Positions 16,840 to 55,312 of a stretch of DNA of 64,000 nucleotides are shown here, piece by piece. The notes below the pieces were generated by a model that did no database searches, was not told the origin of the DNA, and saw only the letters and a list, made by a program, of their open reading frames with translations. The DNA is from Candidatus Pacebacteria bacterium UBA6180 (GTDB taxonomy: Bacteria; Patescibacteriota; Microgenomatia; UBA1400; PJMF01). Every line of letters begins with the position of its first letter. Positions within the stretch are counted from its first letter, which is position 1. The DNA lies in NCBI GenBank assembly GCA_002422165.1, contig DITQ01000001.1, positions 71,919 through 135,918 on the forward strand, given 5' to 3'. A program made the position numbers and the translations under genes.

Positions 16840-17051
16840 AAAATTTCCCTTGACTCGGCTACAAAATTACCGCTTGCAATTGACTTTGATTCTTGTTAGT
16901 TTGGTCTTTGCTGTGGAACGCAGTGAAAATCTGCGACTGTGCCGCAACGGTGATTTCCTTTTTGGATCAAGTCCGATCTTCAGCAAAATTGCTAATCTTG
17001 ACGAGCATCGAGTAAGAATTTTTCTGTAGAGAAAAAATTTTGCCAGACGAT

Positions 17052-17143: not shown

Positions 17144-17887
17144 ATGTCAAGTAAAGAAACAGGAGGATCAGGAGCAAGACAAAAGAAACGCACGGCTGTG
17201 GAGATGGCTGCTAGTGTGGGGTCGTCCGTAGTTTTGCCAGATCAATTCTGGCAAGATTTCAGTCGTCTGGATCTGTCCACCGTCTTGCGTGATTTGGGCA
17301 AGGAGCTGGGCTTTAGTTGGCTTGAGTGGGCAGCGATCATCAATGGAGCGGGGATGTGGTTGGTGGAGAGTTTGGACAAAGCAGCTGCTAACTTGCAGGC
17401 GCAAGTCGTCGAGCAACAAACAGCCATCGAGCTGCGGCAAACCTTTGGTGTACCCCACAGTGATTTGGCACTGCCAGTTTTCATGGAGTTGGCAGTGATG
17501 GAAGCTGATGCTAGGCAGGCCCTGCAGCAAGGGGCAGCTTCGGTCGAAGCGATGTGGGCGCGGCTTAGAGAGCAAGTTTTTTATACCATACAGTTGTTTT
17601 TGGCTAATCGGATCAATCAAGTCGAGGAGGAAGAGCGGGCGAATAAGCAAGCTTTGATGGTGGCCAAGGAGCACGCCAAAGGTCACGAGCAGGTGTTGGC
17701 GCCGGAACGGACCGCGGTCGACGCTAGATTTAAGCAAACCCTGCGAGACTTGTCAACCAAGAAGGACGAGTTGATGCAGGCTTTTCGGCAATTAACTGGC
17801 GGTGCAGTCAGAGGAGTCGAGCGAGCGTTGGAGGCGACGGTTTTTCAGGCAAGTCGACAGTCGCTAGCGGTGACGCAGGTGGGGTGA
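17144..17887 (+). CDS. Hypothetical protein in a GC-elevated segment
   Basis: The + strand ORF is protein-like (helical, Q/A/E-rich) and has an AAAGG RBS. An antisense 189-aa ORF is a GC-driven shadow. Local GC is visibly higher than the flanks. Confidence 0.5.
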   Translation: MSSKETGGSGARQKKRTAVEMAASVGSSVVLPDQFWQDFSRLDLSTVLRDLGKELGFSWLEWAAIINGAGMWLVESLDKAAANLQAQVVEQQTAIELRQTFGVPHSDLALPVFMELAVMEADARQALQQGAASVEAMWARLREQVFYTIQLFLANRINQVEEEERANKQALMVAKEHAKGHEQVLAPERTAVDARFKQTLRDLSTKKDELMQAFRQLTGGAVRGVERALEATVFQASRQSLAVTQVG

Positions 17888-28346: not shown

Positions 28347-29396
28347 CTATTGTAGCCTATTAAAAGCCATGATGAAAGCGTCTAAGTCTCCGTCTAAAAC
28401 ATCACCACTTTGGCTAGTTTCGACTTGAGTGCGAGTGTCTTTGACCAGTTGGTAAGGGTGAAGGACGTAATTGCGAATTTGTGTTCCAAAACTAGCACTT
28501 TGGTGTTGACCCTTAGCCTGTTTGAGCTCTTGGCTAGAGCGCTCCTCCTCTATTTTGGCTAGCTTAGCCTTGAGCATTTTGAGAGCTCGTTCGCGATTTT
28601 GAATCTGACTGCGTTCTTCACGACATTTAACAGTAATTTGACTAGGCTCATGGGTGAGTTCGACAGCTGAGCTGGTTTTGTTAACTGATTGACCACCTGC
28701 TCCACCTGCTCTGGTGAAGTTCCAGGTCAAGTCGCTGTCTTTGATGACGATATCATTGTGTTGGTCTAAGATGGGCAAGACTTCAACCAAAGCAAAAGAA
28801 GTTTGGCGCAAATTGTCCGCGTTGAAGGGGCTTAATCTGACGAGGCGGTGAGTGCCTTGTTCACTCTTGAGGAAGCCGTAGGCGTAGTCTTCTTCAATTT
28901 CAAAGACGGCTTCTTTGATGCCGGCGTCTTCTCCCCTAATCTCGGAAACGAATTTGTAGCGCCAGCCCTTGCGCTCGAAATAGCGCTGATACATCCGCTT
29001 AACCATCTCGGCCCAATCCATCGCTTCAGTGCCGCCCTGACCAGAATGGACGGATAAAATTGCCTGACAGCGGTCGTATTTGCCGCTTAGATATTGTTTG
29101 AGTTCAGCTTCTTTGAAAAGTTTTTCTAGAATTTTGCCAATGGTTTCGACTTCTTCAGTTATGTTTAAGTCGAGGGCAGCCTGCAAATCTTGGCTGATTT
29201 GCTTGATTTTTTCAAGGGCTTTGACTTCTTTTTGTAGTCGGGAGAGGAGCTGCATGGTGGCTTGCGAGTTATCTCGCTGCCAGAAGTCAGCCGCTTCACT
29301 TTCTTTTTCGATAGTGGCGATTTGCTGTTTTTTGGCTGGCATGCCAGAATCTTTGAGTAGTTGCTGACAGTCTCTAATTAATTGCCTGTAGTCCAT
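28347..29396 (-). CDS. prfB: Peptide chain release factor 2
   Basis: GGQ motif (GGAGGQSVNKTSSA) and the RF2-specific SPF motif (RLSPFNA). The ORF is continuous, with no programmed frameshift. Confidence 0.9.
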   Translation of the reverse strand: MDYRQLIRDCQQLLKDSGMPAKKQQIATIEKESEAADFWQRDNSQATMQLLSRLQKEVKALEKIKQISQDLQAALDLNITEEVETIGKILEKLFKEAELKQYLSGKYDRCQAILSVHSGQGGTEAMDWAEMVKRMYQRYFERKGWRYKFVSEIRGEDAGIKEAVFEIEEDYAYGFLKSEQGTHRLVRLSPFNADNLRQTSFALVEVLPILDQHNDIVIKDSDLTWNFTRAGGAGGQSVNKTSSAVELTHEPSQITVKCREERSQIQNRERALKMLKAKLAKIEEERSSQELKQAKGQHQSASFGTQIRNYVLHPYQLVKDTRTQVETSQSGDVLDGDLDAFIMAFNRLQ

Positions 29397-36935: not shown

Positions 36936-36995
36936 TAGTATAGCAATATGCTTGATTTAATACGCAATCAAAAAAAATTCTGTTTTCACAAAAAG

Positions 36996-37067
36996 TGCCT
37001 CCGGAGGGAATCGAACCCTCATTTTAAGTTCCGGAAACTCATGTCCTATCCATTGAACGACAGAGGC
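36996..37067 (-). tRNA. tRNA-Arg (anticodon CCG)
   Basis: The minus-strand sequence is GCCTCTGTCGTTCAATGGATAGGACATGAGTTTCCGGAACTTAAAATGAGGGTTCGATTCCCTCCGGAGGCA. Anticodon loop TTCCGGA, T-loop TTCGATT. Confidence 0.85.
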
Positions 37068-37175
37068 GTTTTGAGTGCATTATAAATCAATCTCAACCGC
37101 TTGTTTCTATAATTTTGTTTTAGTACGCGAACATTGGCGATTTAGTGATATTTTGATATAATTTGACATCTTGTT

Positions 37176-40100
37176 ATGGTAGAGAAAAGTTCTATTAAGA
37201 AAAAATTTCTCGAGACCGAGCATGCTCTTGCTCAGCCTGAACGTTGGCGAGCCAACCAGTTGTTTCAATTAGTTGAAAATAACCTGAGAAAATCAGAAAA
37301 AATTGATAGAAAAATCAAGATAATTTCTGGTGCTGCGGCAAATTCTTTTGCCACGCGTATCCTCAGAAATCATCGAGAGCAATTCCAGAGAGAAGGCAGT
37401 AAAGAGCTTGCTTCTCCTATTCCAGAAAAACAGGCTGATGAAGAAGTCTTCAGTGAAGTTTTAGTAGTCGATGAGAAATATTTGATAGAAATCTCGCTAA
37501 ATGTGAGGAGAAAAGGAAGCTATACAGATGAGAAAAATATTTCCTTGCCTGTTTTTTTAAATGACAAAGTTTACGTTATGAGGACGGCCACTGGCCAGCT
37601 ATACGTAGCTTTTGATCATGAAGATTCTTTTTTAGCTCATAAGGAAACTTACCAAACTATTGAGAAAGAAGAAGTTGATCCATATAGTGCATTTATTCAG
37701 GTTTTAAAATATTTTTCTTGTTCTGGTAAAAATAGTCAGCAATTTTTGATGGAGCATCAAAAAATGGCAGAATCAGTTGGTTTGGATTTGGGAATCAATT
37801 CAAATCACTACGGCTATCACGGTCAAGCACGCCTACACATTTACCTAGCTGGGCACCAACCTCCTTCAGATAGTTTTGCAGATGATTTGTTGGTTGGAGC
37901 AGCACTGCGGAAGGGATTTCATTTAAATGAAAAACATGAAAATGTTCAAGAAGAAGCTGCTCTTAATAATCAATTGTGGGAACAGTTTTGGGAGGGTTTG
38001 CAAGGAGATGTTGTCTTGAAGTCTTTAATGAGAATGGACGTCAACTATTTACCAGGTTTGTATGATTCAAAAAGTGTGAAGCAATTAGTTGCTAAAGTGG
38101 CGATTGCGCAAGTTTATGGTCGTACCAGTGACCTACAAGAAATAATTCCCGTGCCTAGAAAACTTGTTTTTTCACTAAAAGCAATTGCTGAATATGTTGT
38201 ACGCCTTTTGTACTTGGAGAGTTGGGAAAAAGCTGAAGGTTTGGATGAGTTATTTTTTAGTAAGCCGACATCGTATCGTGTTAAACAAATTGCATTTGGA
38301 TTATTTTCCATATATGACAAAATTGGTTTTTCAAGCATCGACGAGGCTTTAAATTTCCTTTTTCAGTATCATCAAATTACTGAATTAGAGAGAGATGAGC
38401 TGAAAAATTGCTTGGACTTAGAACAGCAAGTCGCCAGTCTTCCTCGTTTAAAAGAAGATCAGGCCTTATCTAGAGAAGCGGCTGATTTTTTAGGTATATA
38501 CGGTGTTAATGAAAATTTATTCAACTCAACTTCATTGCTTGCTTTTCAGTTAGATGCAGATGCTTTGGGTGCACCCAGAACATATTTATCAGTAAAAAGA
38601 GATAGCTCTCTTACTGGGTTTGGTTTGCGCTTAGAGCATTTATCTCAATCTATAACAAATCACTTTCCTAGTTATAAATTTCGTGTCAAGAACGATCGCT
38701 CTTTTCTTAGAGATAGACGAGCTCCATTTTGGTCAGTTCTTTTTGGTCATGAACTGGGGCTATATAGGCATGATGAGTTTGATTTGAAACAAATGCTGAT
38801 TGAATTTCAAACTGCTTTGCAAGTTTTGAAGAGTTATGAATTGATTCCCCATGAGATGGCTTTGACGATTATTAGTTTTTGGAAAAATATTGTAGATAGA
38901 TTAAACATATCTTCAGAGACAGAGATAGATTCTGGAAATAGTGCCAAAGAATTACTTTACAAATTAGAAAAAAGAATAACTAAAACCCATTTAGCTCATC
39001 ATGCACATGCTGGTGAACATCTGAAATTTTGGCTTTCTTCTTCAGTTTTCCTAGAAAGAATGCGTTACTTTTGGCAAAAAATTAGAGCTAATGGATATCC
39101 TTTGGCGGCTCACCTAGAGCAAGCTCCAGCTCATGGTGGTCTAGAATCTAGTGCTAAAAATTTACCACTTCACCTGGTAACTGACAGAACTACTCGTTTT
39201 GATAAGGAACTCATTAATCTTAAATTTTATATGAAAAAAGCCAAAGAATTAGATAAAAATTCTTCTGCTCATATTGCGGTGCGCATGGCAGCCATTCGTC
39301 AATATCCAAGTCGGGTGCATTGTCGAGACCATCGCTATGAAGATAATTATTCTAGAACAGTGTGGTTTGAATGGGAAGTTTCAGCATTTACCAAAAGATG
39401 GATTGCAGAACATTGGCAAGAAATAGTTGGAGAAGAAGAAGTTTCTTATTTTAAAAATGCAACTGAAATTGGAGAGAGAATTTATGGAATTATCAATCAG
39501 GAAATTGAAGATTTGCTGGCACAGGCTTTTCAAGAAAACAATCAAGCTCGTCGAACTCGCATTTTGCTTCATGCTTATCGTTTGGCAACGACAATTTATG
39601 AATTTGACAGAATTTGGGAGAAACCAAGGGTTGATGAGCGCGTTAATTTAAATATTTGTGCGTGGAGTGACAACTATAATCAAATCAGAGATAGTTTACG
39701 AAAAATGATTGACATTGCCAGTAAAGAAAGAGTTAAGCCTCCAGGGGAAATTAAAATTAAGCCTGGGCAAGTTCACTGTTTGTTGGGACCCAATATGGGT
39801 GGCAAAAGCACTGTTATGCGACAACTTGGCTTTGGAATTTTAGCTCACAACCAAGGTCTGCCTCAAGTTGGAGGAGGGTTTAGCGCTGCAGATGATATTT
39901 TTTTGAGTAGTCCTGTGGGTAGTGAACGGCAAATGGCTGGTGAAAGCTTGTTTACACAGGGAGCCAAAGAATTGGGAGACATTATTGAAGCAAAGCAAAT
40001 AGGGAGGCACAAGTATTTGTGGATGCTTGATGAATTTGGTCGCCGGACCAATGCTCGTTATGGACAGGCAAACATGATGACAGCAAGCATAGTTGCTGCA

Positions 40101-41768
40101 GCTTATGAAGAGACCCCCAAAGATATGGCTCTTATGGCAACTCATTATCAATCAATGGTTCGTTATCAACCCTTTTTTCAAGCTCTGGGTTTGGAATTGG
40201 TTTTTTGGAAAGTGGAAGACTTTAAACTCAAGAGGCTTGAACCTGATGAAGAGGTAAAAAGTTTAGCTATTCAAGCGATTGCTAAGCATCTGCCACTGAG
40301 TGAATATGAAGATTGGCCTGATAAGGAAGATGCTCAGCATGCAAAAAATTCTATTGGAACAAAAGAAAAACCAGTTTTAAAATCTTTGAGTCGAGAACAA
40401 ATTGCAGCTGCGACAAGAGATGATCTAATGGGAGCCAGCATGCGGGAAAAAATTGAGTTTCTATCAAATCGTTATAACATGACAGTTGTGGAAGCTAAAA
40501 TTTTTCTAGCTCGCTATTTGGTTCCAAAAGAGGTAGAAGAGAAACAAAAAATTGTCGCTGCTGTACTTGCTCATCCGCAACTAACTGAACACTTAAAAAT
40601 CTTAAAAGAAATTCAAGAAATTACCTCTTTTCATAAAAGACTGCTAGAAGTTGATTGGAAACAGCGTACGGCAATGAGAAGGAATTTTTATAAACACTTT
40701 GATTTAAAAAAGATTGATTATAACGCCAATATAGATGTTTTTAATAAACAAGTAGAGGTTTTTTTGAATCAGCTAGTAAAAAAAGCCAACAAAACCATGC
40801 GTTTTGGAAAAAAACTCATTAATGACGTTGTTCCTAACTGGCTTGATGGTAAAGGAACTACCTATACTATTGTAAATGATATTTTAAGCGGAAATCTTAA
40901 CAGAGGAATTTATGAGTTAGGAGCAGTTTTTTCTTATGCTTCTCAAATCAAAAGCAAACGAGAAAATGGCTTTGGTTATGCTCAAGCTGAATTTAGAGAT
41001 GAGGCAGTTTTTGCGGCAGAAGAGGCGTGGAACCCAAATTTGCGTGAGGAAAAAATCGTTACCAATTCATTTAATTATGATTTTAGAGATGGGAGAGCAG
41101 GAGTGGTTACTACTGGTGAAAATGGTTCTGGAAAGAGCAATCATCAAATTACTGTTGGTCAAATAGGTATAGAGGCAACATGCTTGGGTTTTGGTCCTGC
41201 AACAAAAATTATCGCCCCAAAGAATTTACAAGTACTTGCTCTCACTCAGCCAGTTAGTGATACTCTCAAAGAGAGCTCAATGGGTCAAGAAGTAGTTCGT
41301 CGGATAAGTAAAGCAGTGGCAGTAGCGAAACATAGTAAAAACCCAACTCTAGTTCTGCTTGACGAGCCTGGCGCTCCCACCTCAGAGACTGATGCACACA
41401 AAATCATTGTGTGGCTATTTCATAAATTTTTGAAAAACACTAACACTAAATTGGAAGTGTCCACGCATTGCGATGGTTTGGTGGATGCTCTAAAAGATAA
41501 AGTCTACTTCCAAGCGTTTCGCTTGTTGAGTGATCAGCCGTTTAAAGCCTTTGTGGGAACAGCAGACAGCAACGCTTTGGAGGTTGCCAAGTTTTATGGT
41601 ATGGATGAGACATTTTATGACATTGCCAAAATTGTGCACGAGTTTATTGTTTTTACTCAGTCAGACAAAAATTTAATAAAGCTTCATGCACAAGTTTTTG
41701 CAGATAGAATTAAAGAAATATTGGTGAAGAGAGTGTTTGTGGCTGAAGCGCAAGCCCAGGTTGTTTAG
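37176..41768 (+). CDS. Giant protein (1530 aa) with two tandem MutS-family ABC ATPase domains and a large unknown N-terminal region
   Basis: Domain 1 at about aa 865 to 1030: GPNMGGKSTVMRQLGFGILAHNQGLPQ...SLFTQG...LWMLDEFGRRTNARYGQANMMTASIVAA. Domain 2 at about aa 1320 to 1470: TGENGSGKSNHQITVGQIGIEATCLGFGPA...SSMGQE...LVLLDEPGAPTSETDAHKII...STHCDGL. Confidence 0.6.
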   Translation: MVEKSSIKKKFLETEHALAQPERWRANQLFQLVENNLRKSEKIDRKIKIISGAAANSFATRILRNHREQFQREGSKELASPIPEKQADEEVFSEVLVVDEKYLIEISLNVRRKGSYTDEKNISLPVFLNDKVYVMRTATGQLYVAFDHEDSFLAHKETYQTIEKEEVDPYSAFIQVLKYFSCSGKNSQQFLMEHQKMAESVGLDLGINSNHYGYHGQARLHIYLAGHQPPSDSFADDLLVGAALRKGFHLNEKHENVQEEAALNNQLWEQFWEGLQGDVVLKSLMRMDVNYLPGLYDSKSVKQLVAKVAIAQVYGRTSDLQEIIPVPRKLVFSLKAIAEYVVRLLYLESWEKAEGLDELFFSKPTSYRVKQIAFGLFSIYDKIGFSSIDEALNFLFQYHQITELERDELKNCLDLEQQVASLPRLKEDQALSREAADFLGIYGVNENLFNSTSLLAFQLDADALGAPRTYLSVKRDSSLTGFGLRLEHLSQSITNHFPSYKFRVKNDRSFLRDRRAPFWSVLFGHELGLYRHDEFDLKQMLIEFQTALQVLKSYELIPHEMALTIISFWKNIVDRLNISSETEIDSGNSAKELLYKLEKRITKTHLAHHAHAGEHLKFWLSSSVFLERMRYFWQKIRANGYPLAAHLEQAPAHGGLESSAKNLPLHLVTDRTTRFDKELINLKFYMKKAKELDKNSSAHIAVRMAAIRQYPSRVHCRDHRYEDNYSRTVWFEWEVSAFTKRWIAEHWQEIVGEEEVSYFKNATEIGERIYGIINQEIEDLLAQAFQENNQARRTRILLHAYRLATTIYEFDRIWEKPRVDERVNLNICAWSDNYNQIRDSLRKMIDIASKERVKPPGEIKIKPGQVHCLLGPNMGGKSTVMRQLGFGILAHNQGLPQVGGGFSAADDIFLSSPVGSERQMAGESLFTQGAKELGDIIEAKQIGRHKYLWMLDEFGRRTNARYGQANMMTASIVAAAYEETPKDMALMATHYQSMVRYQPFFQALGLELVFWKVEDFKLKRLEPDEEVKSLAIQAIAKHLPLSEYEDWPDKEDAQHAKNSIGTKEKPVLKSLSREQIAAATRDDLMGASMREKIEFLSNRYNMTVVEAKIFLARYLVPKEVEEKQKIVAAVLAHPQLTEHLKILKEIQEITSFHKRLLEVDWKQRTAMRRNFYKHFDLKKIDYNANIDVFNKQVEVFLNQLVKKANKTMRFGKKLINDVVPNWLDGKGTTYTIVNDILSGNLNRGIYELGAVFSYASQIKSKRENGFGYAQAEFRDEAVFAAEEAWNPNLREEKIVTNSFNYDFRDGRAGVVTTGENGSGKSNHQITVGQIGIEATCLGFGPATKIIAPKNLQVLALTQPVSDTLKESSMGQEVVRRISKAVAVAKHSKNPTLVLLDEPGAPTSETDAHKIIVWLFHKFLKNTNTKLEVSTHCDGLVDALKDKVYFQAFRLLSDQPFKAFVGTADSNALEVAKFYGMDETFYDIAKIVHEFIVFTQSDKNLIKLHAQVFADRIKEILVKRVFVAEAQAQVV

Positions 41769-47226: not shown

Positions 47227-48777
47227 TCAAATCCAACCTTGAGCACTACTGTACATGATAAGAGAGAACATTCTTGCTATTATCTCTCCCGAGAGATTAA
47301 AAATATTGTGATTTTGAAACTCAAAATTATGGCCTGTAAAGTTTCTAACACATGTAGTAATTCTAGCGTTAGCGAAATTCACATCTGTGGTATTAGATAC
47401 AGCGCTGTTAATTTTTGTTTCTAATTCAGTTAAACTGCTTGCAGCCGTATATTCACCTCTAGTTGAATTAATTGGTGTACTAAAAAGTGTTTGCAGCATA
47501 TCGCCAAGAGTCCCACTTAGACTTGAATTCTTTCTTTTCAGCTCATCTTCATACCACAGCGCAAGTTCAGATAGAGATCTTAAAATTTCACCTCTGTTCA
47601 CAGGATTACTCAGCTCAGAATTCAAGCTATAGGAAAAAGAAAACCGATAGAGAGTTATGAATAAAAGAATTTTCTTTTCAGGCGAAAGTGATAAAACATA
47701 TGATTTAAAATCACCTTCTGATAAAGTCGTTGAAAAAACTTGAATATTCTTACTAAGAATGTCTTGGAAGAAGTTCGATATCTGTATATTTTCAAATTGG
47801 GTATATAGATCACTGGTTGGCAAATCTTTCTCTGGATCTATGGTGACTCCAGATAAATGGGCTAAACAACTCCTATCATTATCGTAAGCCTTATAAAGAT
47901 TAAATAACCCTTCTATCACTTTCCCCTGGGCTAGTTGGGAAACACCTAAATTTGCCAGTGAAATGCCTCTGTTTACATTTTTATTATCAGTTTTATTAAA
48001 GTTAACAATCTCACTATCAATATTTGCCCAATAACTTTCTGACACACCATATAATCCACGATTTAGTAGCCAAGTTCCCATCATCTGAGTGTAGCCATCA
48101 ATCGGCTTATTCTTGTCCTCATAAGTATTAATTTCGAAGTCCGATACCTTCATTTGACTTAAACGTTCTCTAAGGCCGATTCTTCCGAGCTCAACCAGGT
48201 AGGCGATATCTCGATGAACTCTGTCAACAATATCACCGCCATTTCCAGGAGTTGTTGCTAATAAGTCATACTTTGAGTCAAATTCAGTAGTGTCAGTTGG
48301 GAGTTCAGACAACTTCTTCACAGCCACTTCAGAATCTGAAATCAACTTTTTTATTTCATCTAAACTACTTTGAAATTTGCCTTCTAATGCAGATGCATTA
48401 AATAGTAGCGGAACAGTAAAAATTAAATCGAAACTTCCCAAAATGCCACTTGGCATTACTTTGAATAGATAATCATTCTGCACTGATAAAGAAGTTGGTT
48501 TCGTGTTGAATAAAAAGTAGTAGGCTAAGACAACATTTGGAATAGGATCTCTATCAGGAATTAAATTTCTGCATCTTTTTGCTAAAAATAGGAATTCACT
48601 TCTTAAAAAATCTGCTTTCCTTAATCCCTCTTTGATCCAGTTCGTATATTGCTCAGAGTTGTTATCTGTAAACCCTTGCTGTGGGATACCAAATCTGTGT
48701 CTATATTCTCGCACTAACAAAATAAACATTGGGTGATTTACAAGGCTCTCAAAAGAGAGATTTATTTTGTCGTACAT
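47227..48777 (-). CDS. Hypothetical protein (516 aa), 4th gene of an AT-rich four-gene operon
   Basis: Overlaps the upstream gene by 16 nt. No recognisable motif. Very AT-rich. Confidence 0.5.
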   Translation of the reverse strand: MYDKINLSFESLVNHPMFILLVREYRHRFGIPQQGFTDNNSEQYTNWIKEGLRKADFLRSEFLFLAKRCRNLIPDRDPIPNVVLAYYFLFNTKPTSLSVQNDYLFKVMPSGILGSFDLIFTVPLLFNASALEGKFQSSLDEIKKLISDSEVAVKKLSELPTDTTEFDSKYDLLATTPGNGGDIVDRVHRDIAYLVELGRIGLRERLSQMKVSDFEINTYEDKNKPIDGYTQMMGTWLLNRGLYGVSESYWANIDSEIVNFNKTDNKNVNRGISLANLGVSQLAQGKVIEGLFNLYKAYDNDRSCLAHLSGVTIDPEKDLPTSDLYTQFENIQISNFFQDILSKNIQVFSTTLSEGDFKSYVLSLSPEKKILLFITLYRFSFSYSLNSELSNPVNRGEILRSLSELALWYEDELKRKNSSLSGTLGDMLQTLFSTPINSTRGEYTAASSLTELETKINSAVSNTTDVNFANARITTCVRNFTGHNFEFQNHNIFNLSGEIIARMFSLIMYSSAQGWI

Positions 48778-49961
48778 ATTCTTATCCTTATCATTTTTCT
48801 CCCCATCACATCTGGGTTCTTAGGTAAAATAGTGGCCTCTACTATATTTTCAATAGAAATCTTGTATTCTTTGGCAAAATGTTTCTTTAAGTTTTGAATA
48901 AGTTTGGTTTTATTTGTTTCTATAGTGTGATAATACAGTTGATTTCTAAATGTAGATCCAAATTGGTCAATCTCATAAACCTCAATTAATGATCCTTCGG
49001 TTCTGTTTTCCTCTGGGTCAAAGACCTCAATGGTGTACACACTTTTCTTATACTTATAATATTTCAGCAGGATACTTGGAGATACATTGTCAAAAGAAGC
49101 TCCTGTGTACCAAGTATTGCCTGGTAAAGGGAATTGGTTGGGATAAGTCTCCGATCGGTCAAAATTAGCTGGATGAGCTACATCACCAAAAGTCGATCTT
49201 TCATCCCAAAATCTTTTTATAACATTTTTTTCATCATCATCTATTTCAATTTTGGAAGCAACCTCTTCAAGTCTATCTTTGAACTTAGGTTTATTCGATA
49301 GAGAGTTCACAATAATTTCTATCGATTTGAAGTGGTCAAGAGCTCTTTTCTCATCACTATCAAAAATTAAGTATCCCATTGATGCTCTGTAAAGATATTT
49401 CAAAGCTCTTTCAAATATTGCATCACGAAATTCTAGTGAATCATTCAAAAAAGTTTCTGTTAGTTCACTCATCCATTGATTTCTTTCGGGACGATCAGGT
49501 AAATATATATGACCACTCTCCAGTTTGAAATCGACTTCTGATTCATTTCCTTCCTCATCTAAAGAATAAATCTTATTAACTTGATAAATGTATGGTTGAA
49601 AACTACCTCTGTTTTCACCGTGTTTCAGTTTCAGATCTTTAAGATTTGCCAGAGATAAAAACCGTGCCACTCTATCGATTGCACGAATTGCTCCACCTAC
49701 GGCTGATCTAGTATTTTCTTCTTCAATGTCATAGTAAATGACATACTCAGATTTAATTTTTATGGGGTCAAAATATGGTAAAGATGTAACATAAGTCTTG
49801 TGAAAGTTGTTTACATCAGAATCGGAAAACACACTTTTGATTGGGGCGAAGTTCCTTTTTTCTTGCTCTTCAAAAGTCATTTTCCTTATAAAGCACTTTT
49901 CAATCTCTCTTTCTGAGAGAGTCTGACCATGGATTAGTGCATAAATTCTATATTTACTCAT
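48762..49961 (-). CDS. Hypothetical protein (399 aa), 3rd gene of the operon
   Basis: Overlaps neighbours on both sides. Contains RFWDERSTFGDVAH, which is HEPN-like (R-x7-H) but not canonical. Confidence 0.5.
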   Translation of the reverse strand: MSKYRIYALIHGQTLSEREIEKCFIRKMTFEEQEKRNFAPIKSVFSDSDVNNFHKTYVTSLPYFDPIKIKSEYVIYYDIEEENTRSAVGGAIRAIDRVARFLSLANLKDLKLKHGENRGSFQPYIYQVNKIYSLDEEGNESEVDFKLESGHIYLPDRPERNQWMSELTETFLNDSLEFRDAIFERALKYLYRASMGYLIFDSDEKRALDHFKSIEIIVNSLSNKPKFKDRLEEVASKIEIDDDEKNVIKRFWDERSTFGDVAHPANFDRSETYPNQFPLPGNTWYTGASFDNVSPSILLKYYKYKKSVYTIEVFDPEENRTEGSLIEVYEIDQFGSTFRNQLYYHTIETNKTKLIQNLKKHFAKEYKISIENIVEATILPKNPDVMGRKMIRIRICTTK

Positions 49962-51747
49962 GATTTTTAAAATAGGCTGTAAATTTTTCTACTAGTAATT
50001 TGTATAAAAAATCAAATAAAGGAGTATCTGAATATATCAAGTCACATTCTCCTTCAGTCCAGGTACTAACTTTATATTTATTTCCTCGCAACTCAACCTG
50101 ATTAAAATTAGAGTTTTTCAAAAGCAACTTTTCATCTTCTGTAAGCTCCACAACTCTCGTTGTTTTTGTATGATTTATTCCCTCCAAATAGAAAGTGTGT
50201 AGTTTAGGAATATCAAATCCTTTATATACATCTTTGGTTTCGATTGAAAATGCTATGACTTCTGGAAGACTTAATTCTTTTGCTAAAGATGGAAAATTAT
50301 TAAGTACAACTTGGTTGTAAGCTTCAACAAGTGATGATTGAAAGACATGGAAGTTGTTAGCAACATCCTCTTTTGAGAGGGTATTCCAGATTAAGTTAGA
50401 TTCTAACTTTGAAAGTCTCTCAAAACTTTTTCTAATATATGGTCTTTTAATCTCACCTGTTTGATTTTTAAGGTAAGTTAGTAGCTCAACGAAAATACCA
50501 AAAGGAAATTTTTCATTACCAACTAGTATCCTTGGTAGAGATTTGTCTTTCTTTGAGAGTGTAGTTATTGTTAGCCTATTTACCTTAGCTAGTTCTTCAG
50601 TATTTAATGAAGATAATACATCTGGATCAAGGTAACTCCTATTAGGAATATCGTTCTTCTTTATTAAGACCTTATATGCGTTTATTGTCCACCATGGTAG
50701 GAAATTATAAAAAGCAAACTCCACCTCTTCTAACGAATATTTATCTTTTTTATCTAAACCAAGCTGAATCTTGAACTTATCGACAAAGGCAAAAATGAAT
50801 TCTTTTGCTAGATCTTTGTTCCCAGCATGATTTAGCAACTTTTTATATAGAACATTTAATACTTTCTCACGAATAATATCTCTAGAATACTTTTTATGAT
50901 CTTTGAGTATTGGGTTTTGCGTACTAAAGCCTCTAAACTCCAAACCCTCATTTCTTAATTGCTCATGCAATGCTTTTGTTGCTTCTTTAATCTGGACGTC
51001 GTTTTTTGTGAGTGAAATTGGATATAGTGCATAAGATAAGTTATTTTGAGAAAACTCATAGTAAGTCAACCCAATTTTCCAAGCATCAGGATAATATATC
51101 CTTTTTACCAACTTAAACTCATTTTCCAATAGGCTATTTAGCTCATCTAAGAACAAATGAATAAATTCATACCTTTCGTCAATTGCTCCCAATGCCGGTG
51201 TAATTGTTTCAGAAATAAGTGCATATGCATTCTTATATTTTTCAAACTCTTCAGCTTTATACCTATACAAATCAATTATTTTCGACCATTCATCAATAAA
51301 TTCTTTGCTACCATTTTTTATAACTTTTAATTTATCAAAATGAATTGTTTTACTAGTTCCTAGATTATCTACAAAACTTTTATCAATCTGAATCCAATAA
51401 GCCTCTTTTGGATCATCAAGTCTGACCCCAATGAGAATTTTCGGTATCCAATTATTGGAGTCTTTACAATAAGACAAAAATTTATCATCGTTAAAGCTAT
51501 ATTTGGGGGGATTAATATTTTTTGAAGGCAACTTTTTGATCTGAACTTCAAGCTTCCCAATTGGAAAGCCTTCTTTGTCAGTTACCTCAATATAACCATC
51601 AATATTAGGCCAAGTATCATTTGATTTAATATCTGGCATTGCTCTTTGAGTTTCTGACAGCCAGGCACTAACATAACTTACAGCTTGTTGGTCAAAAAAA
51701 CTTGTTTTGAAATGTTTTGCTGATTTTGACTTTTTTCCTTTAGACAT
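49954..51747 (-). CDS. Hypothetical protein (597 aa) with an N-terminal DUF4365-like PD-(D/E)xK motif, 2nd gene of the operon
   Basis: WPNIDGYIEVTDKEGFPIGKLEVQIKK gives a D-G-x-I-E...V-Q-I-K pattern typical of DUF4365/REase-like folds. Family assignment is from memory. Confidence 0.5.
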   Translation of the reverse strand: MSKGKKSKSAKHFKTSFFDQQAVSYVSAWLSETQRAMPDIKSNDTWPNIDGYIEVTDKEGFPIGKLEVQIKKLPSKNINPPKYSFNDDKFLSYCKDSNNWIPKILIGVRLDDPKEAYWIQIDKSFVDNLGTSKTIHFDKLKVIKNGSKEFIDEWSKIIDLYRYKAEEFEKYKNAYALISETITPALGAIDERYEFIHLFLDELNSLLENEFKLVKRIYYPDAWKIGLTYYEFSQNNLSYALYPISLTKNDVQIKEATKALHEQLRNEGLEFRGFSTQNPILKDHKKYSRDIIREKVLNVLYKKLLNHAGNKDLAKEFIFAFVDKFKIQLGLDKKDKYSLEEVEFAFYNFLPWWTINAYKVLIKKNDIPNRSYLDPDVLSSLNTEELAKVNRLTITTLSKKDKSLPRILVGNEKFPFGIFVELLTYLKNQTGEIKRPYIRKSFERLSKLESNLIWNTLSKEDVANNFHVFQSSLVEAYNQVVLNNFPSLAKELSLPEVIAFSIETKDVYKGFDIPKLHTFYLEGINHTKTTRVVELTEDEKLLLKNSNFNQVELRGNKYKVSTWTEGECDLIYSDTPLFDFLYKLLVEKFTAYFKNHE

Positions 51748-51776
51748 ATTTGTTCATATTAATTATAGCTTTGATT

Positions 51777-53387
51777 TTATTGTATATTTCCTGAAAACCC
51801 CTCATTCTCACTCACCAAAAAAATCGTCCAGTAAACATACCCGCTGGCATCTTTTAAATCTCTTCCAGTCAGAACACCTTCCCGTCTCAATTTTTTGATC
51901 GATGATGGTTTTACGCCTCGTTTTTCAACGTCATATTTATCAAAATGTTCTTTCTCCCACCACTCCTTATCCAGATCAAGCACAGGGACCACACCTTCCT
52001 GGATATTTCTCCAGCAATCACGGCATCTCAAGCCATCTGGCCGCCACCAAATGTCCTCACCGTTGTGGGATCTTCTGCAAATTCCACAAGTGTAACCTCT
52101 ACCACCATCATTGAGAAAGAAACCATTTGGTTCATCTTTTAGCCTGCGAGTCCTAATACGTTTGGTTGCAATGTATTCAGCGTCCATTCTGGCTAGCTGT
52201 ACGAGGTTGTGGTGTTCATATTTAGCTCTGAAATCTGGATCAAGCTTGGATTTAGGCTTCTTTGGTTCTTCTTTACCAAACAGCTTAAGCAAGTCGTCTT
52301 CTGATTCATATCCTTTGAGCTTGCCACTGAGAAATCCCAACCGATAACTCATCAGGTCTTTCGGTGCTCGCCAGTTGGTGTCCTTGAGTGTTGTTTTCAG
52401 TAAGTCGTATAAATCAGAGATGCTTTCTCGGTCACGTCGCTTAGGCTTAGTTTCTTGAAGAGTAAATGGCACTAATACGTGACGATCCATATTAGGCTCA
52501 CCAATAGATAGGCGGGTAAAACCACTTTCTTCAAGTGCTTTATTGATCAAAGTTTCTAGGTCTGTGATGGCGATTTTATTTACCGATAACAGCTTTTCAT
52601 GAGCTGGCGTATCGAGTTCAGCGAGAACTTCCTCTTTTACTTCATGAGCAACCTCCAGAGCTTCAAGCGTTTCTACATATTCTTTGCCTTTTTCATCAGA
52701 TAAACAAAACTCTGCTCGATACTTCACCAATAGTTGTTTGTCTTCTAGCTCTTCTTTTGCATGTTCTTCCTGCCACTTTTTATGCTCCTCATCGCTTTTC
52801 TTCAGATCCCAAATCTCTTTATTTGAGTAGCCACAGTTTTTGCACTTGTAGCGGGTGGTAATGACCTCATCTTTCTTACTACTTTTTCTCTCTAGCTTTT
52901 GTTTGCAGTCAGGACAAAAGTCAGACTTAGAAACATAGATCTCGCCATCGTCATACGCACCTTGTCGCTTTTTACATTTTGGACAGTTGAAGGTGAATAG
53001 CACCCTCATGGGTTTACCATCATCCCAATCAACTAAGTGGTGAGAACCATCGTCAGTCATAGCACTCCCACATTCAGGGCAATTGGCTCTGGGAGCTGGA
53101 GTATTGTCTTGCTTGTCCTGTTTAAGGCGATCAGACTCAAGCCACTCAGCGATAGTTGAAGCTCTGTGTTTGTGTCTTTGAGCTTGGATGAGAAAGAGCA
53201 TCCTGCCTCTGAGCAATCCCATGTTTCGTTCTTGTTCAGATTCTGGGTAATTTTGGAACTTTGGTTCCTGTTTCATTTTCTCGCCAATAGAATTGACCAT
53301 CTCCAAAGTCTTCAGACACTCTCTGATAGTGCCAACATCGTAGCGATCTTCATACTCTTGTTGTGGTTTTAGGTATTGAAACGACAT
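51777..53387 (-). CDS. Multi-zinc-ribbon protein (536 aa), 1st gene of the operon
   Basis: Three CxxC...CxxC pairs: CPECGS...CPKCKK, CPDCKQ...CKNCGY, CGICRR...CRDCWR. No NTPase motif. Somewhat higher GC than the downstream genes. Confidence 0.5.
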   Translation of the reverse strand: MSFQYLKPQQEYEDRYDVGTIRECLKTLEMVNSIGEKMKQEPKFQNYPESEQERNMGLLRGRMLFLIQAQRHKHRASTIAEWLESDRLKQDKQDNTPAPRANCPECGSAMTDDGSHHLVDWDDGKPMRVLFTFNCPKCKKRQGAYDDGEIYVSKSDFCPDCKQKLERKSSKKDEVITTRYKCKNCGYSNKEIWDLKKSDEEHKKWQEEHAKEELEDKQLLVKYRAEFCLSDEKGKEYVETLEALEVAHEVKEEVLAELDTPAHEKLLSVNKIAITDLETLINKALEESGFTRLSIGEPNMDRHVLVPFTLQETKPKRRDRESISDLYDLLKTTLKDTNWRAPKDLMSYRLGFLSGKLKGYESEDDLLKLFGKEEPKKPKSKLDPDFRAKYEHHNLVQLARMDAEYIATKRIRTRRLKDEPNGFFLNDGGRGYTCGICRRSHNGEDIWWRPDGLRCRDCWRNIQEGVVPVLDLDKEWWEKEHFDKYDVEKRGVKPSSIKKLRREGVLTGRDLKDASGYVYWTIFLVSENEGFSGNIQ

Positions 53388-53458: not shown

Positions 53459-55312
53459 TTGATGAAACAAGCAAATAAGACAAAAACTAACTCTGATAAA
53501 AGAAAATCTTTTTTAAGACATAAGTTTACCTTAAAATCAGCGACAATCTTTTTTGGATCTCTATGGTTAATGACGATGCTGTTTTTCTTGGCAATAGTGA
53601 TAGTAGGAACAAATTTCTTTCAAACGACTGTTGATAAGGGCCCACTGCAGGGAGATATCTGGGGCATTGTGATGGTGCTGGATATACTTGGTGGAATCGG
53701 ATTCTTTTTAATTTTTTCTATGCTTCTGACTGCATTATCTATGAGATCAAATGACCCTGATAAAAAGAAGTCTTCATTCCTAAGGAAGTTAATCAATTTT
53801 TTCCTCTTTTTCATTTATCTGGGAATTCTTCCTTTGTATTTATTACTCAGAGTATGGCAACCAAAAAAATGGTTCGTCTGGTTAACAAATATCAAGAACA
53901 GTTCCAATAAAATCGCACTCAAATCCCTTGGTAAAAAATTAGCAATATCTTTACCGATACTACTGTTTTTACTTCCAGTTTGGGCAGTCGGATATTTTTC
54001 TGTGGGAACAATCGTTGCTGACGAACTTGGTTTAGTTCCATACCAAATGGATATTGTTGGCACAGGATCAATGCACCCGACTTTTCCAAAGGGAGATGGT
54101 AAAGATCCAAAAGAACTTGCGAAACAAGTTGTTGGCCGTCAAAACATGTTTAATTATCCAAATGGCTTCGTGTTTTCAGGAAAACGATATTTTGGTCACA
54201 CCATAACTCGTGGTGACATTATCACAGTAGAAGATGAAAAGACGAGAAAAGCTACTGAGGAAACATATGGAGATCCATCAGGTTGGCTGAAACGAGTTGT
54301 GGCAGTTGCTGGAGACACTTTGGAGTTGAGAGATGGTATTTTCTACCTCAATGGCGAACCCCAAAAGGAGCCATATGTAGCTAGAGCACGATCAACATTC
54401 GGTCAGTCATTTCTGCAGGAATGTCAGCAAGTAACCGTTCCAGATAATTCTATATTTATCATGGGAGACAACCGCACTGGGAGTCGAGACTCCAGAGACG
54501 TAGGTTTCTTTAGCATAAATGATATTAAGTCAGTTTATCCGTTCACCAAACAAGCAGAAAACCTCAGTAAAAACTGGCATGACACGACAAATGATCTAGA
54601 AGAATCTGCCAGAATTAAACTCAATAAAGAAGAATACGTTGAAAAACTCAATCAGAAACGTGAAGAAGAAGGTCTAAAACCGCTCAAATATAATGAAAAA
54701 TTAGAGCTTTCTGCAGAAAAAAGAGGTGCCAAAATTCTTGAACACAATGACTTCTCTTTTGAGGCAACTGCAAGTGGTTATACGATGGAGAAAGCTATCA
54801 GAGAGGTCGGTTATTATAATACTTTTTGGGGAGAGGCACCAAGCAATGGTTATTACGAAGCAAGTGAACTGCTAGATTATCAGCTTGAGTTTCCTGAATC
54901 TAAAACATTCGTTTTCGACAAGCGTTTTCAAGAAATCGGTATTGCTGAAGTACAAGGTGAGATCAATGGTTGTCCAGCACATGTGATTGTGCAACATTTT
55001 GGAGGCTATGTGCCACCAAACTATTCTGCATCAGACATTCAATCATGGGAAGATGCACTAGGATCATTAAGAAACATTCAACCTAGTTGGAATAACTTAA
55101 AGAATTCCGGTGATTTTTATAATCGTCATAAGGAGAAAGTTGATCGGTTAAATCAAATTATCGATATTAGAATTAACAGAATGACTGATATTGTTGGGAC
55201 AATGAAAGCAAATAGATGGCTAAATGCTGAACAAAATGCATTTGCTAATTCAGGTGACATGGCTTTGTATAAAGAACAGGAAGAACTCGCTACGTTCCTT
55301 AACAGCCAATGA
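53459..55312 (+). CDS. Multi-TM signal peptidase I (S26) domain fused to a C-terminal CAP/SCP (YkwD-like) domain
   Basis: About 5 N-terminal TM helices. SPase I Ser box GTGSMHPTFP, Lys box KRVVAVAGD, and GDNRTGSRDSRDVGFF. The C-terminus matches the CAP pattern LKPLKYNEKLELSAEKRGAKILEHNDFSF...GY...GE. Confidence 0.55.
   Translation: MMKQANKTKTNSDKRKSFLRHKFTLKSATIFFGSLWLMTMLFFLAIVIVGTNFFQTTVDKGPLQGDIWGIVMVLDILGGIGFFLIFSMLLTALSMRSNDPDKKKSSFLRKLINFFLFFIYLGILPLYLLLRVWQPKKWFVWLTNIKNSSNKIALKSLGKKLAISLPILLFLLPVWAVGYFSVGTIVADELGLVPYQMDIVGTGSMHPTFPKGDGKDPKELAKQVVGRQNMFNYPNGFVFSGKRYFGHTITRGDIITVEDEKTRKATEETYGDPSGWLKRVVAVAGDTLELRDGIFYLNGEPQKEPYVARARSTFGQSFLQECQQVTVPDNSIFIMGDNRTGSRDSRDVGFFSINDIKSVYPFTKQAENLSKNWHDTTNDLEESARIKLNKEEYVEKLNQKREEEGLKPLKYNEKLELSAEKRGAKILEHNDFSFEATASGYTMEKAIREVGYYNTFWGEAPSNGYYEASELLDYQLEFPESKTFVFDKRFQEIGIAEVQGEINGCPAHVIVQHFGGYVPPNYSASDIQSWEDALGSLRNIQPSWNNLKNSGDFYNRHKEKVDRLNQIIDIRINRMTDIVGTMKANRWLNAEQNAFANSGDMALYKEQEELATFLNSQ

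What the first reader, a model, noticed from the sequence alone, without database searches (positions are those of the whole stretch)
37176..41768. 1530-aa protein with two tandem MutS-type ATPase domains (intramolecular pseudo-dimer?) beside tRNA-Arg
Two separate segments each carry the full MutS domain-V signature. The first has GPNMGGKST-x-RQ, the STF-like SLFTQG, LWMLDEFGRRTN...G.A. The second has GENGSGKS, SSMGQE, LVLLDEPGAPTSETDA, STHCDGL. The 850 residues in front are unrecognisable.

MutS proteins normally form dimers with composite ATP sites, so a single chain with two ATPase cassettes would be a covalent pseudo-heterodimer. That is an unusual architecture: it has no Smr domain and no obvious mismatch-binding domain I.

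The gene is more AT-rich than its neighbours and abuts the 5' side of tRNA-Arg(CCG), so it may have been horizontally acquired. Its function (repair, recombination control or defence) is open.
Basis: partly seen in the sequence, partly recalled or inferred. Interest (0 to 1): 0.7.

Follow-up and report, generated by a model that had tools for sequence, protein, structure and literature searches.

The report
Single-chain double MutS ATPase protein
This gene of an uncultured Patescibacteria (CPR) bacterium encodes a rare, uncharacterised 1530-residue protein that carries two different MutS-type ATPase domains in one chain, predicted to pack against each other the way two separate MutS subunits normally do, behind a 790-residue front part that resembles nothing known.

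Summary
ORF 37176..41768 (+) encodes 1530 aa with two MutS domain V cassettes (aa ~856-1060 and ~1266-1480). Each has Walker A, a signature serine, Walker B Asp-Glu, a His-loop and the C-terminal helix-turn-helix.

It is not an assembly chimera. Eight full-length homologs (1434-1536 aa, 19-66% identity) from independent assemblies keep both cassettes in one frame.

The first 790 residues match no Pfam, PDB or MutS domain I-IV profile. No Smr or nuclease domain was found.

The host is a Patescibacteria (Woesebacteria-like) bacterium. The gene is compositionally foreign (GC3 0.28 vs 0.40-0.63) and is missing from the same syntenic site in close relatives. The tRNA-Arg adjacency is not conserved.

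Tandem MutS_V chains recur in other unnamed families (30 of the 152 best hits, including this family).

Verdict: a real new variant of the MutS family. The function is inferred only.

The parts
37176..41768 (+). Complete ORF of the tandem-MutS protein (1530 aa plus stop).
   Evidence: ORF list and translation. Full-length homologs of 1434-1536 aa.
37134..37162 (+). Promoter-like site (TTGGCG-17-TATAAT with an extended TG). It ends 14 nt before the ATG, which would give a very short leader.
   Evidence: Consensus scan only. The number of sites in the region is not above the shuffled expectation, so this is weak evidence.
37176..39542 (+). N-terminal region, aa 1-789. No recognisable domain. Alignable across the family with few invariant residues (for example D147 in 'DHEDSFL').
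   Evidence: No Pfam hit. No PDB hit with the family profile. hhalign against MutS1 domains I-IV gives probability 0.1%. Family alignments. The first AF2 model, which covered aa 331-1530 (only part of this region), was unusable at pLDDT 39.9.
39543..39740 (+). Two long basic helices (aa ~790-855, pI 9.9) leading into cassette 1.
   Evidence: AF2 model helices H10-34 and H48-69, where model residue n corresponds to ORF residue n+780. Charge analysis.
39741..40355 (+). MutS domain V cassette 1 (aa ~856-1060). Walker A is GPNMGGKST 871-879. Signature is SLF 924-926. Walker B is DEFGRR 952-957. His-loop is ATHY 988-991. A beta hairpin plus helix-turn-helix covers 1009-1060.
   Evidence: Pfam MutS_V 49 bits. 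PDB MSH6/MutS E 1.7e-8. Motif coordinates. Residues invariant in 8 homologs: G871 N873 G876 K877 S878 S924 D952 E953 T958. AF2 pLDDT mostly above 90.
40356..40970 (+). All-helical, basic linker domain (aa ~1061-1265, 9 helices, pI 9.65, net charge +11). Its last ~90 residues align with the C-terminal part of the MutS core (domain III).
40971..41615 (+). MutS domain V cassette 2 (aa ~1266-1480). It has the N-terminal strands with 'AWNPNL...VTNSF', the counterpart of MutS 'GRHPVVE...FVPND'. Walker A is GENGSGKS 1314-1321. Signature is SSM 1367-1369. Walker B is DEPGAP 1396-1401, with no arginine at the position of the Arg in the MutS1 DE-x-GRGT motif. His-loop is STHC 1429-1432. A helix-turn-helix follows.
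   Evidence: Pfam MutS_V 23.4 bits. Family profile against PDB MutS/MutS2 E 1e-8. hhalign probability 98.5%. Invariant G1314 E1315 G1319 K1320 S1367 M1369 E1372 D1396 E1397 P1398 T1402 S1403. pLDDT above 90.
41616..41765 (+). C-terminal helices (aa 1481-1530).
   Evidence: AF2 helices H698-714, H718-740 and H743-747. Conserved 'IAKIV.E(F/Y)I' motif.

Best explanation
The gene encodes a self-contained, single-chain member of the MutS ATPase superfamily.

Shown or predicted structure: two anciently diverged MutS domain V cassettes are joined by a basic helical domain that resembles the MutS core. They are predicted to fold back on each other into the head-to-tail ABC-type dimer that separate MutS subunits normally form. 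That arrangement would create two composite and non-equivalent ATP sites. In each site, the Walker A/B and His-loop come from one cassette and the signature serine comes from the other. Cassette 1 keeps the MutS 'DE-x-GR' arginine. Cassette 2 has 'DEPGAP' instead.

Inferred mechanism: by analogy with MutS, MSH heterodimers and MutS2, ATP binding and hydrolysis at these sites would open and close the attached helical arms. These arms are the basic linker, the basic pre-cassette helices and the unknown 790-aa N-terminal region. They would grip a nucleic-acid or nucleoprotein substrate, most likely DNA.

What it is probably not: there is no mismatch-binding domain I, no Smr and no other nuclease domain. 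The protein is therefore more likely an ATP-driven sensor, clamp or remodeller than a mismatch-repair initiator or a nuclease.

Genomic status: it is a stand-alone accessory gene of some Patescibacteria, probably gained horizontally.

Status of each step:
- Shown: the two cassettes, their conserved motifs, the single ORF, the rarity, and the accessory and compositional status.
- Predicted: the pseudo-dimer packing.
- Inferred: the substrate and the biological role.
For: Two MutS-type cassettes.

Catalytic and signature residues of both cassettes are invariant across 8 homologs at about 20% identity.

One uninterrupted ORF in all homologs.

The AF2 model of aa 781-1530 has pLDDT 90.5 and pTM 0.87.

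Foldseek: the top 50 PDB hits are all MutS, MSH or MutS2.

- ABCF proteins align 287-307 residues at 3.5-4.0 A.

The two cassettes are more distant from each other (0.99) than from single-cassette MutS proteins (0.89-0.90). They are therefore a heterodimer-like pair, not a recent repeat.

The linker and pre-cassette helices are basic (pI 9.65 and 9.9).

MutS proteins are known to work as dimers with trans composite ATP sites (PMC12292046, read).

The gene is flanked by unrelated or opposite-strand genes in every locus seen, with no conserved partner.

GC3 is 0.283 against 0.40-0.63 in the neighbours.

The gene is absent from the syntenic BacA-side position in relatives with 78-80% identical PrfB.

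Against: Cassette 2 alone is below the Pfam gathering score (23.4 vs 30.2 bits).

The His-loop histidine is not conserved in every homolog. Cassette 1 of P0008 and P0009 and cassette 2 of P0005 are affected.

Nothing shows nucleic-acid binding. The whole protein is near neutral (pI 7.3) and several homologs are acidic (pI 4.7-6.5).

The N-terminal half is completely uninterpreted.

The best NCBIfam match is KamC, an ATPase named as an enzyme reactivase (76 bits against a 300-bit cut-off). MutS_V ATPases therefore need not act on DNA.
Confidence: 0.6

Rival explanations
1. It is a single-gene anti-phage or anti-plasmid defence protein. In this reading, an ABC-type ATPase sensor uses the tandem MutS cassettes to detect foreign DNA or replication and recombination intermediates. 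The unknown N-terminal region would act as sensor or effector.
For: The gene is accessory and compositionally foreign.

The same window holds other AT-rich islands, including an SF1 helicase with a restriction-endonuclease-like tail.

In locus L005 the homolog lies about 5 kb from a serine recombinase and a Phage_rep_O gene.

There is a weak PADLOC match of cassette 2 to 'mad3' (24 bits, E 6e-6).

Many known defence systems use ABC or SMC-type ATPases (my own knowledge).
Against: No PADLOC model matches beyond a partial ATPase segment.

No nuclease, protease, TIR, Sir2 or other effector domain was detected. Only about ten residues are invariant in the N-terminal alignment and they form no recognisable catalytic motif.

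There is no conserved partner gene.

No relatives occur in phage or plasmid collections.

Other homolog loci are surrounded by housekeeping genes such as gyrA/gyrB, murein ligases and Ddl.
Confidence: 0.2
2. It is a MutS2-like translation quality-control factor. In this reading, the fused ATPase pair clamps and splits stalled or collided ribosomes, as shown for B. subtilis MutS2.

For: The cassette 2 profile hits MutS2 chains at E 1.4e-8.

Like MutS2, the protein lacks domains I and II.

MutS2 splits collided ribosomes (abstract of PMC10897456, listed).
Against: No KOW or Smr domain was found. According to that paper's abstract, these domains recruit MutS2 to collisions.

The NCBIfam mutS2 score is 21 bits against a cut-off of 400.

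A core translation factor would not be expected to be missing from close relatives.
Confidence: 0.08
3. It is a protein-directed ATPase, a chaperone or reactivase like KamC, unrelated to nucleic acids.
For: The best NCBIfam hit is KamC, the lysine 5,6-aminomutase reactivase ATPase (76 bits, aa 802-1007). The same holds for several other tandem proteins. An AdoCbl riboswitch is present elsewhere in the window.
Against: The score is far below the 300-bit cut-off. No aminomutase or B12-enzyme genes are adjacent in any locus. The riboswitch is 20 kb away. I found no literature on KamC to define its features.
Confidence: 0.05
4. It is an artefact: two adjacent mutS-like genes fused by misassembly or sequencing error, or a decaying pseudogene.
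For: None was found beyond the unusual length.
Against: Eight independent full-length homologs of 1434-1536 aa align end to end, and the close homologs are 57-66% identical. There are no internal stops. Catalytic motifs are conserved in both cassettes. The folded model of the region spanning both cassettes is confident.
Confidence: 0.01

Closest known systems
MutS2 (bacterial; core plus clamp plus ATPase, no domains I/II)
   Different: MutS2 has one cassette per chain and forms homodimers. It carries C-terminal KOW and Smr modules that are absent here. The TIGR01069 score is 21 bits against a cut-off of 400. This protein also has a 790-aa unknown N-terminus.
Eukaryotic MSH heterodimers (MSH2-MSH6, MSH2-MSH3, MSH4-MSH5)
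   Different: In MSH complexes the two domains sit on two polypeptides. Here they are on one. Domains I-IV are not detectable by sequence. This is a bacterial (CPR) accessory gene.
MutS1 (bacterial mismatch-repair MutS)
   Same: Cassette 1 has the canonical GPNMGGKST, S-x-F, DE-x-GR-x-T and THY motifs. hhalign gives 98.5% probability for ORF 1180-1487 against MutS1 489-811.
   Different: No domain I (Phe-x-Glu) and no detectable domains II-IV. TIGR01070 scores 40 bits against a cut-off of 642. One chain carries two cassettes.
Single-chain tandem-NBD ABC proteins (UvrA, ABCF/EttA, ABCE1)
   Different: These are a different branch of the ABC superfamily. ABC_tran scores only 17.6 bits, below its 25-bit cut-off. 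There are no UvrA zinc modules and no ABCF linker. The cassettes here carry MutS-specific features: the N-terminal strands and the C-terminal helix-turn-helix.
Other unnamed two-cassette MutS_V proteins from metagenomes
   Same: Examples are P0011/P0014/P0015/P0016/P0036, P0012/P0017/P0023/P0059/P0072, P0129 from Candidatus Saganbacteria and P0294 from Sediminibacterium. They share the overall idea of two MutS_V cassettes in one chain. Group P0011-P0036 has the same order of cassette types.
   Different: They are only about 16-21% identical to this protein. They are 900-1330 aa long with different N-termini and linker lengths. In several groups the two cassettes are closest to each other, which suggests independent duplications. 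All are annotated as hypothetical, or auto-named MutS2.

Membership tests
MutS superfamily (Pfam PF00488, MutS domain V) | Sequence match to the MutS_V profile above the gathering score. | tested here: met
   The whole protein scores 66.8 bits against 30.2. Cassette 1 alone scores 49.0 bits. Cassette 2 alone scores 23.4 bits, which is below the threshold. Cassette 2 is rescued by its family profile: PDB MutS at E 1e-8 and hhalign probability 98.5%.
MutS superfamily (Pfam PF00488, MutS domain V) | Walker A, signature S-x-F/M, Walker B DE and His-loop motifs, plus the C-terminal helix-turn-helix. | tested here: met
   All motifs are present in both cassettes. Walker A Lys, signature Ser and Walker B Asp-Glu are invariant in 8 homologs. 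The His is variable in 3 of 16 cassettes.
MutS superfamily (Pfam PF00488, MutS domain V) | MutS-like fold: helical core segment plus ABC-type ATPase. | tested here: met
MutS superfamily (Pfam PF00488, MutS domain V) | Dimeric ATPase with trans composite sites (here intramolecular). | tested here: inconclusive
MutS1 (mismatch-repair MutS) | N-terminal mismatch-binding domain I (PF01624, Phe-x-Glu) and domains II-IV. | tested here: not met
   No Pfam hit in aa 1-855 at E up to 10. hhalign of the N-terminal family profile against a MutS1 alignment gives probability 0.1%.
MutS1 (mismatch-repair MutS) | NCBIfam equivalog score (TIGR01070 at 641.7 or more; NF003810 at 480 or more). | tested here: not met
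   40.4 and 47.2 bits.
MutS2 | C-terminal Smr (PF01713) and KOW modules; TIGR01069 at 400 or more. | tested here: not met
   No Smr or KOW hit in any of 8 family members. TIGR01069 scores 21.2 bits.
KamC (lysine 5,6-aminomutase reactivase ATPase, NF052383) | Equivalog score of 300 or more, and neighbourhood with aminomutase genes. | tested here: not met
   76 bits. No aminomutase genes in the window neighbourhood or in homolog loci.
Tandem-NBD ABC proteins (UvrA / ABCF / ABCE1) | ABC_tran-type NBDs and family-specific inserts (UvrA zinc modules, ABCF P-site tRNA interaction motif, ABCE1 FeS domain). | tested here: not met
Known anti-phage defence systems (PADLOC-DB 2.0) | Match to a defence protein model over most of its length, with the system's partner genes nearby. 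| tested here: not met
   Only a partial hit: mad3, 24 bits, aa 1365-1444. No conserved neighbours.

The most novel reading that the evidence does not exclude
Single-chain 'fused-dimer' MutS proteins are an unrecognised class of the MutS family that arose several times independently. This CPR family, with its unique 790-aa N-terminal module, is a self-contained ATP-driven DNA-surveillance or anti-mobile-element machine. It would work without MutL, Smr or any partner protein.
Probability: 0.25. Interest if true: 0.7.

Novelty: new variant of a known kind. Interest (0 to 1): 0.55.

Why it matters
MutS proteins are the textbook case of an ATPase that needs two subunits to build its active sites. 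The asymmetry between the two sites is central to how MutS and the MSH heterodimers signal.

A natural chain that hard-wires two different MutS ATPase domains together would be a ready-made system for studying that asymmetry. Each site can be mutated separately without mixing subunits.

The protein would also extend the 'fused NBD' theme of UvrA, ABCF and ABCE1 to the MutS branch.

The family is confined to poorly known, small-genome bacteria and has a large front half with no recognisable relatives. It may therefore mark a DNA- or RNA-handling activity that has not been described.

The practical limit is that nothing yet shows what substrate it acts on.

Tried and rejected
1. First AlphaFold2 run. 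It used aa 331-1530 with a 3-sequence alignment and gave pLDDT 39.9. It was unusable and was not interpreted.

2. Genome collection scans. Both scans of the GTDB species-representative genomes, one with the single protein and one with alignment A1, found no relative.

3. Metagenome contig scan. It fell back on generic Walker A/B patterns and returned only ordinary MutS genes at 24-35% identity. It therefore says nothing about family size.

4. Word-indexed protein search with the 8-sequence profile. It was swamped by MutS1 proteins and did not even recover P0005-P0009.

5. Conserved downstream partner. I suspected one because ~190-aa genes follow the homologs in L003, L004 and L005. They are unrelated to each other, apart from two paralogs within L003. 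The idea was rejected.

6. tRNA-targeted island. The tRNA's 3' end points away from the gene. No att-like direct repeat was found. Homolog loci L001 and L002 have no tRNA nearby. The idea was rejected.

7. N-terminal region. It was tested against Pfam, PDB sequences and a MutS1 profile. Nothing was found.

8. Phage and plasmid collections. Only generic cassette 1 matches to ordinary mutS genes were found.

9. Alignment design for the second model. MAFFT always stacked single-cassette MutS fragments onto cassette 2, never onto cassette 1. In the final alignment, cassette 1 is therefore supported by the 28 two-cassette rows only.

10. Structure libraries. The AFDB Foldseek library was not available. 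The BFVD search gave only giant-virus MutS7/MutS8 and ABC proteins, with no tandem form.

11. Literature. Searches for tandem or fused MutS ATPases and for KamC found nothing relevant.

Full report
**What is there.** The window carries one uninterrupted ORF at 37176..41768 on the + strand. It starts with ATG and encodes 1530 aa. Cassette 1 has GPNMGGKST at 871-879, SLFTQG at 924-929, LWMLDEFGRRTN at 948-959 and ATHYQ at 988-992. Cassette 2 has GENGSGKS at 1314-1321, SSMGQE at 1367-1372, LVLLDEPGAPTSETDA at 1392-1407 and STHCDGL at 1429-1435. A 103-aa ORF on the opposite strand inside the gene (39840..40151) has no support and I regard it as spurious.

**Are both cassettes MutS-type?** Pfam MutS_V matches the protein in two stretches, with 66.8 bits in total against a gathering score of 30.2.
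- Scanned separately, cassette 1 scores 49.0 bits (E 9e-13). Cassette 2 scores 23.4 bits (E 6e-5), which is significant but below the curated threshold.
- I therefore tested cassette 2 with a profile built from seven family members. Its best PDB hits are all MutS, MutS2 and MSH3 (E 1.2e-8 to 1e-5). ABC-transporter NBDs appear only above E 0.009.
- A profile-profile comparison of the family with a MutS1 alignment gives 98.5% probability (E 3.5e-15). It aligns ORF 1180-1487 with MutS1 489-811, which is the end of the core domain plus all of domain V with its helix-turn-helix.
- Cassette 1 hits MSH6 and MutS directly, at E 1.7e-8.
- The two cassettes share only about 22% identity over 98 residues. 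In a distance analysis of 179 cassettes they are further from each other (0.99) than either is from single-cassette MutS proteins (0.89-0.90). They are an old, heterodimer-like pair, not a recent tandem repeat.

**Not an artefact.** The word-indexed search of 5.8 billion protein clusters found only two close relatives: P0002 (66% identity, 1529 aa) and P0003 (57%, 1536 aa). Both are full-length.
- The exhaustive HMM search of 1.84 billion cluster representatives used aa 331-1530. It added P0005-P0009 (1434-1507 aa, E 1e-50 to 1e-82) and the fragment P0004.
- All of these align end to end with the query and come from different samples.
- Across these eight sequences, at about 20% identity, the following are invariant in both cassettes: the Walker A Gly and Lys, the signature Ser and the Walker B Asp-Glu. 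This is the pattern expected if both ATP sites and both trans-acting signature motifs are functional.
- The His-loop histidine is less constant. Cassette 1 of P0008 and P0009 and cassette 2 of P0005 are affected.
- Cassette 1 keeps the arginine of the MutS 'DE-x-GR-x-T' motif. Cassette 2 has 'DEPGAPTS' in nearly all members. The two sites are therefore not equivalent.

**Structure.**
- A first model of aa 331-1530 with three sequences was useless (pLDDT 39.9).
- I then assembled a 58-row alignment for aa 781-1530. It holds 28 proteins that each carry two cassettes plus 29 short single-cassette proteins. I checked locally that both Walker A and Walker B columns were in register.
- The second model is confident, with mean pLDDT 90.5, pTM 0.87 and 575 of 750 residues above 90.
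- Its order of elements is as follows:
  - two long helices (ORF ~790-849);
  - cassette 1;
  - an all-helical domain of nine helices (ORF ~1073-1263);
  - cassette 2 with the MutS-typical N-terminal strands;
  - C-terminal helices.
- In Foldseek against the PDB, the top 50 hits are all MutS, MSH or MutS2. Global TM-scores are low (0.26-0.36), as expected when one chain is compared with a two-cassette model.
  - ABCF proteins (LsaA, VmlR, EttA, YbiT, Uup, YheS) align 287-307 residues at 3.5-4.0 A.
  - UvrA aligns 321 residues.
- Aligning about twice a single NBD at similar rmsd is what is expected if both cassettes superpose at once on a head-to-tail NBD sandwich. Together with the high pTM, I take this as indirect support for the intramolecular pseudo-dimer.
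- I could not inspect coordinates or residue-level alignments, so this remains a prediction.

**The rest of the protein.**
- Residues 1-789 give no Pfam hit even at E 10, and none in any of the eight family members.
- There is no PDB sequence hit with the family profile and no profile similarity to MutS1 domains I-IV.
- The region is alignable across the family, but the alignments contain few invariant residues (one search lists ten; for example D147 in 'DHEDSFL') and they form no recognisable catalytic motif. This argues for a binding or scaffold role rather than an enzyme.
- The helical linker (pI 9.65, net +11) and the helices before cassette 1 (pI 9.9) are basic. The cassettes are acidic. 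This is compatible with nucleic-acid contact but does not prove it.
- No Smr, KOW or nuclease domain is present.
- NCBIfam names nothing. The best match is KamC at 76 bits against a cut-off of 300. MutS1 models score 40-47 bits and MutS2 scores 21 bits.
- PADLOC gives only a partial 24-bit match, and PHROGs gives only an unannotated MutS-like family.

**Organism and genomic setting.**
- The PrfB encoded at 28350-29396 (- strand) is 77-78% identical to proteins named Candidatus Woesebacteria and Patescibacteria group bacterium. The window therefore comes from a CPR bacterium.
- Neighbours are ordinary:
  - upstream lie a riboflavin kinase gene, EamA, BacA and tRNA-Arg(CCG), with EamA, BacA and the tRNA on the opposite (- strand);
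  - downstream lie a convergent Na/Ca exchanger gene and a PMT_2 glycosyltransferase gene.
- The gene stands out in composition, with GC 0.376 and GC3 0.283. Flanking genes have GC3 of 0.40-0.63. The gene resembles the AT-rich islands elsewhere in the window.
- Relatives with 78-80% identical PrfB keep the block PrfB-DUF4012-glycosyltransferases-MFS-BacA; L007/L008 also keep Patatin, the flavokinase gene and EamA, which L009 lacks. None has this gene beyond BacA (L007/L008 and L009 from GCA_018817305.1).
- In L001 the ortholog sits about eight genes further from BacA.
- More distant homologs lie next to unrelated genes, with no conserved partner:
  - gyrB/gyrA in L006;
  - murein and D-Ala ligase genes in L004;
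  - a serine recombinase and a Phage_rep_O gene in L005.
- The tRNA adjacency is not conserved. The gene lies on the tRNA's 5' side. No att-like repeats flank it.
- No relatives occur in the phage or plasmid collections, nor in one-genome-per-species GTDB representatives with the patterns used.
- The gene is thus a rare, stand-alone, probably horizontally moving accessory gene.

**How unusual is the architecture?**
- Among the 152 best representatives, 30 have two MutS_V-like cassettes in one chain, including the nine members of this family.
- The others fall into several groups of 900-1330 aa.
- In one group (P0011, P0014, P0015, P0016, P0036) the first cassette matches only the cassette 1 profile and the second only the cassette 2 profile. 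This group probably shares the ancestral fusion.
- In other groups the two cassettes are each other's nearest relatives, which suggests independent duplications.
- None reaches any NCBIfam cut-off.
- The few that carry names are 'hypothetical protein' (Sediminibacterium sp.; Candidatus Saganbacteria) or an automatic 'MutS2' label.
- A recent review of the family describes eight subfamilies that work as homo- or heterodimers with trans composite ATP sites. The passages I retrieved from it do not mention a fused form (PMC12292046).
- My other literature searches found none either.

**Interpretation.**
- The best-supported reading is a single-chain MutS-family machine. Two non-equivalent composite ATP sites are formed between cassette 1 and cassette 2. 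They would drive movements of the basic helical linker and the N-terminal region around a substrate, most likely DNA.
- What is shown:
  - the two cassettes and their conserved motifs;
  - the single ORF;
  - the rarity of the family;
  - the accessory status of the gene.
- What is predicted: the pseudo-dimer packing.
- What is inferred by analogy: the substrate and the biological role.
- The main rival is a defence-type sensor, favoured by the accessory and foreign character of the gene but lacking any effector or system context.
- A MutS2-like ribosome-rescue role and a KamC-like protein-directed role are less likely.
- Misassembly is excluded.

**Verdict.** It is a new variant of a known kind: the MutS family with a fused heterodimer-like ATPase pair and a novel N-terminal half. 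It belongs to a very small CPR-restricted family within a wider, unnamed set of tandem-MutS proteins. Interest is moderate to good (0.55). It would be clearly notable to MutS and ABC-ATPase specialists and offers a useful natural 'linked heterodimer', but no function has been demonstrated.

Noticed in passing
window 59089-63771 (-): A second giant ORF (1560 aa) in a 30% GC region. Pfam finds AAA_11/AAA_12 (Upf1/Dna2-like SF1 helicase) and a weak REase_MTES_1575 restriction-endonuclease-like C-terminus. It looks like a helicase-nuclease of a defence or mobile island.
   Followed up: partly
window 47227-53387 (-): Four consecutive ORFs of 516, 399, 597 and 536 aa. GC is 31-35% for the two I measured (47227-48777 and 49954-51747). 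None has a Pfam hit. This is an AT-rich island of unknown function about 5.5 kb downstream of the MutS-like gene.
   Followed up: partly
window 16888-17023 (+): AdoCbl (cobalamin) riboswitch, 53 bits against a gathering score of 50. It lies upstream of the ORF at 17144-17887.
   Followed up: no
window 36995-37067 (-): tRNA-Arg(CCG), divergent from the MutS-like gene and 108 bp from its start codon. The adjacency is not conserved in homolog loci.
   Followed up: yes
window 53459-55312 (+) and 55309-56733 (+): A 617-aa protein combining a signal peptidase S26 domain with a CAP (cysteine-rich secretory protein) domain, followed by a DUF2779 protein.
   Followed up: no
L005 30-2376 and L005 7172-11695: In one distant homolog locus, a large serine recombinase (Resolvase + Recombinase + Zn_ribbon_recom) and a Phage_rep_O gene lie about 5 kb upstream of the tandem-MutS gene. 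Small unknown ORFs lie in between. This copy may sit at the edge of an integrated element.
   Followed up: no
L003 8215-8393 (-): Two tRNA-Leu genes (GAG, CAG) lie directly at the 3' end of the homolog P0005 gene. The first overlaps the annotated stop by about 20 nt.
   Followed up: no
L007 3478-4548 (-): In close relatives the riboflavin kinase gene next to EamA is fused to a DNA_alkylation repair domain (356 aa). In the window it is a 129-aa flavokinase only.
   Followed up: no
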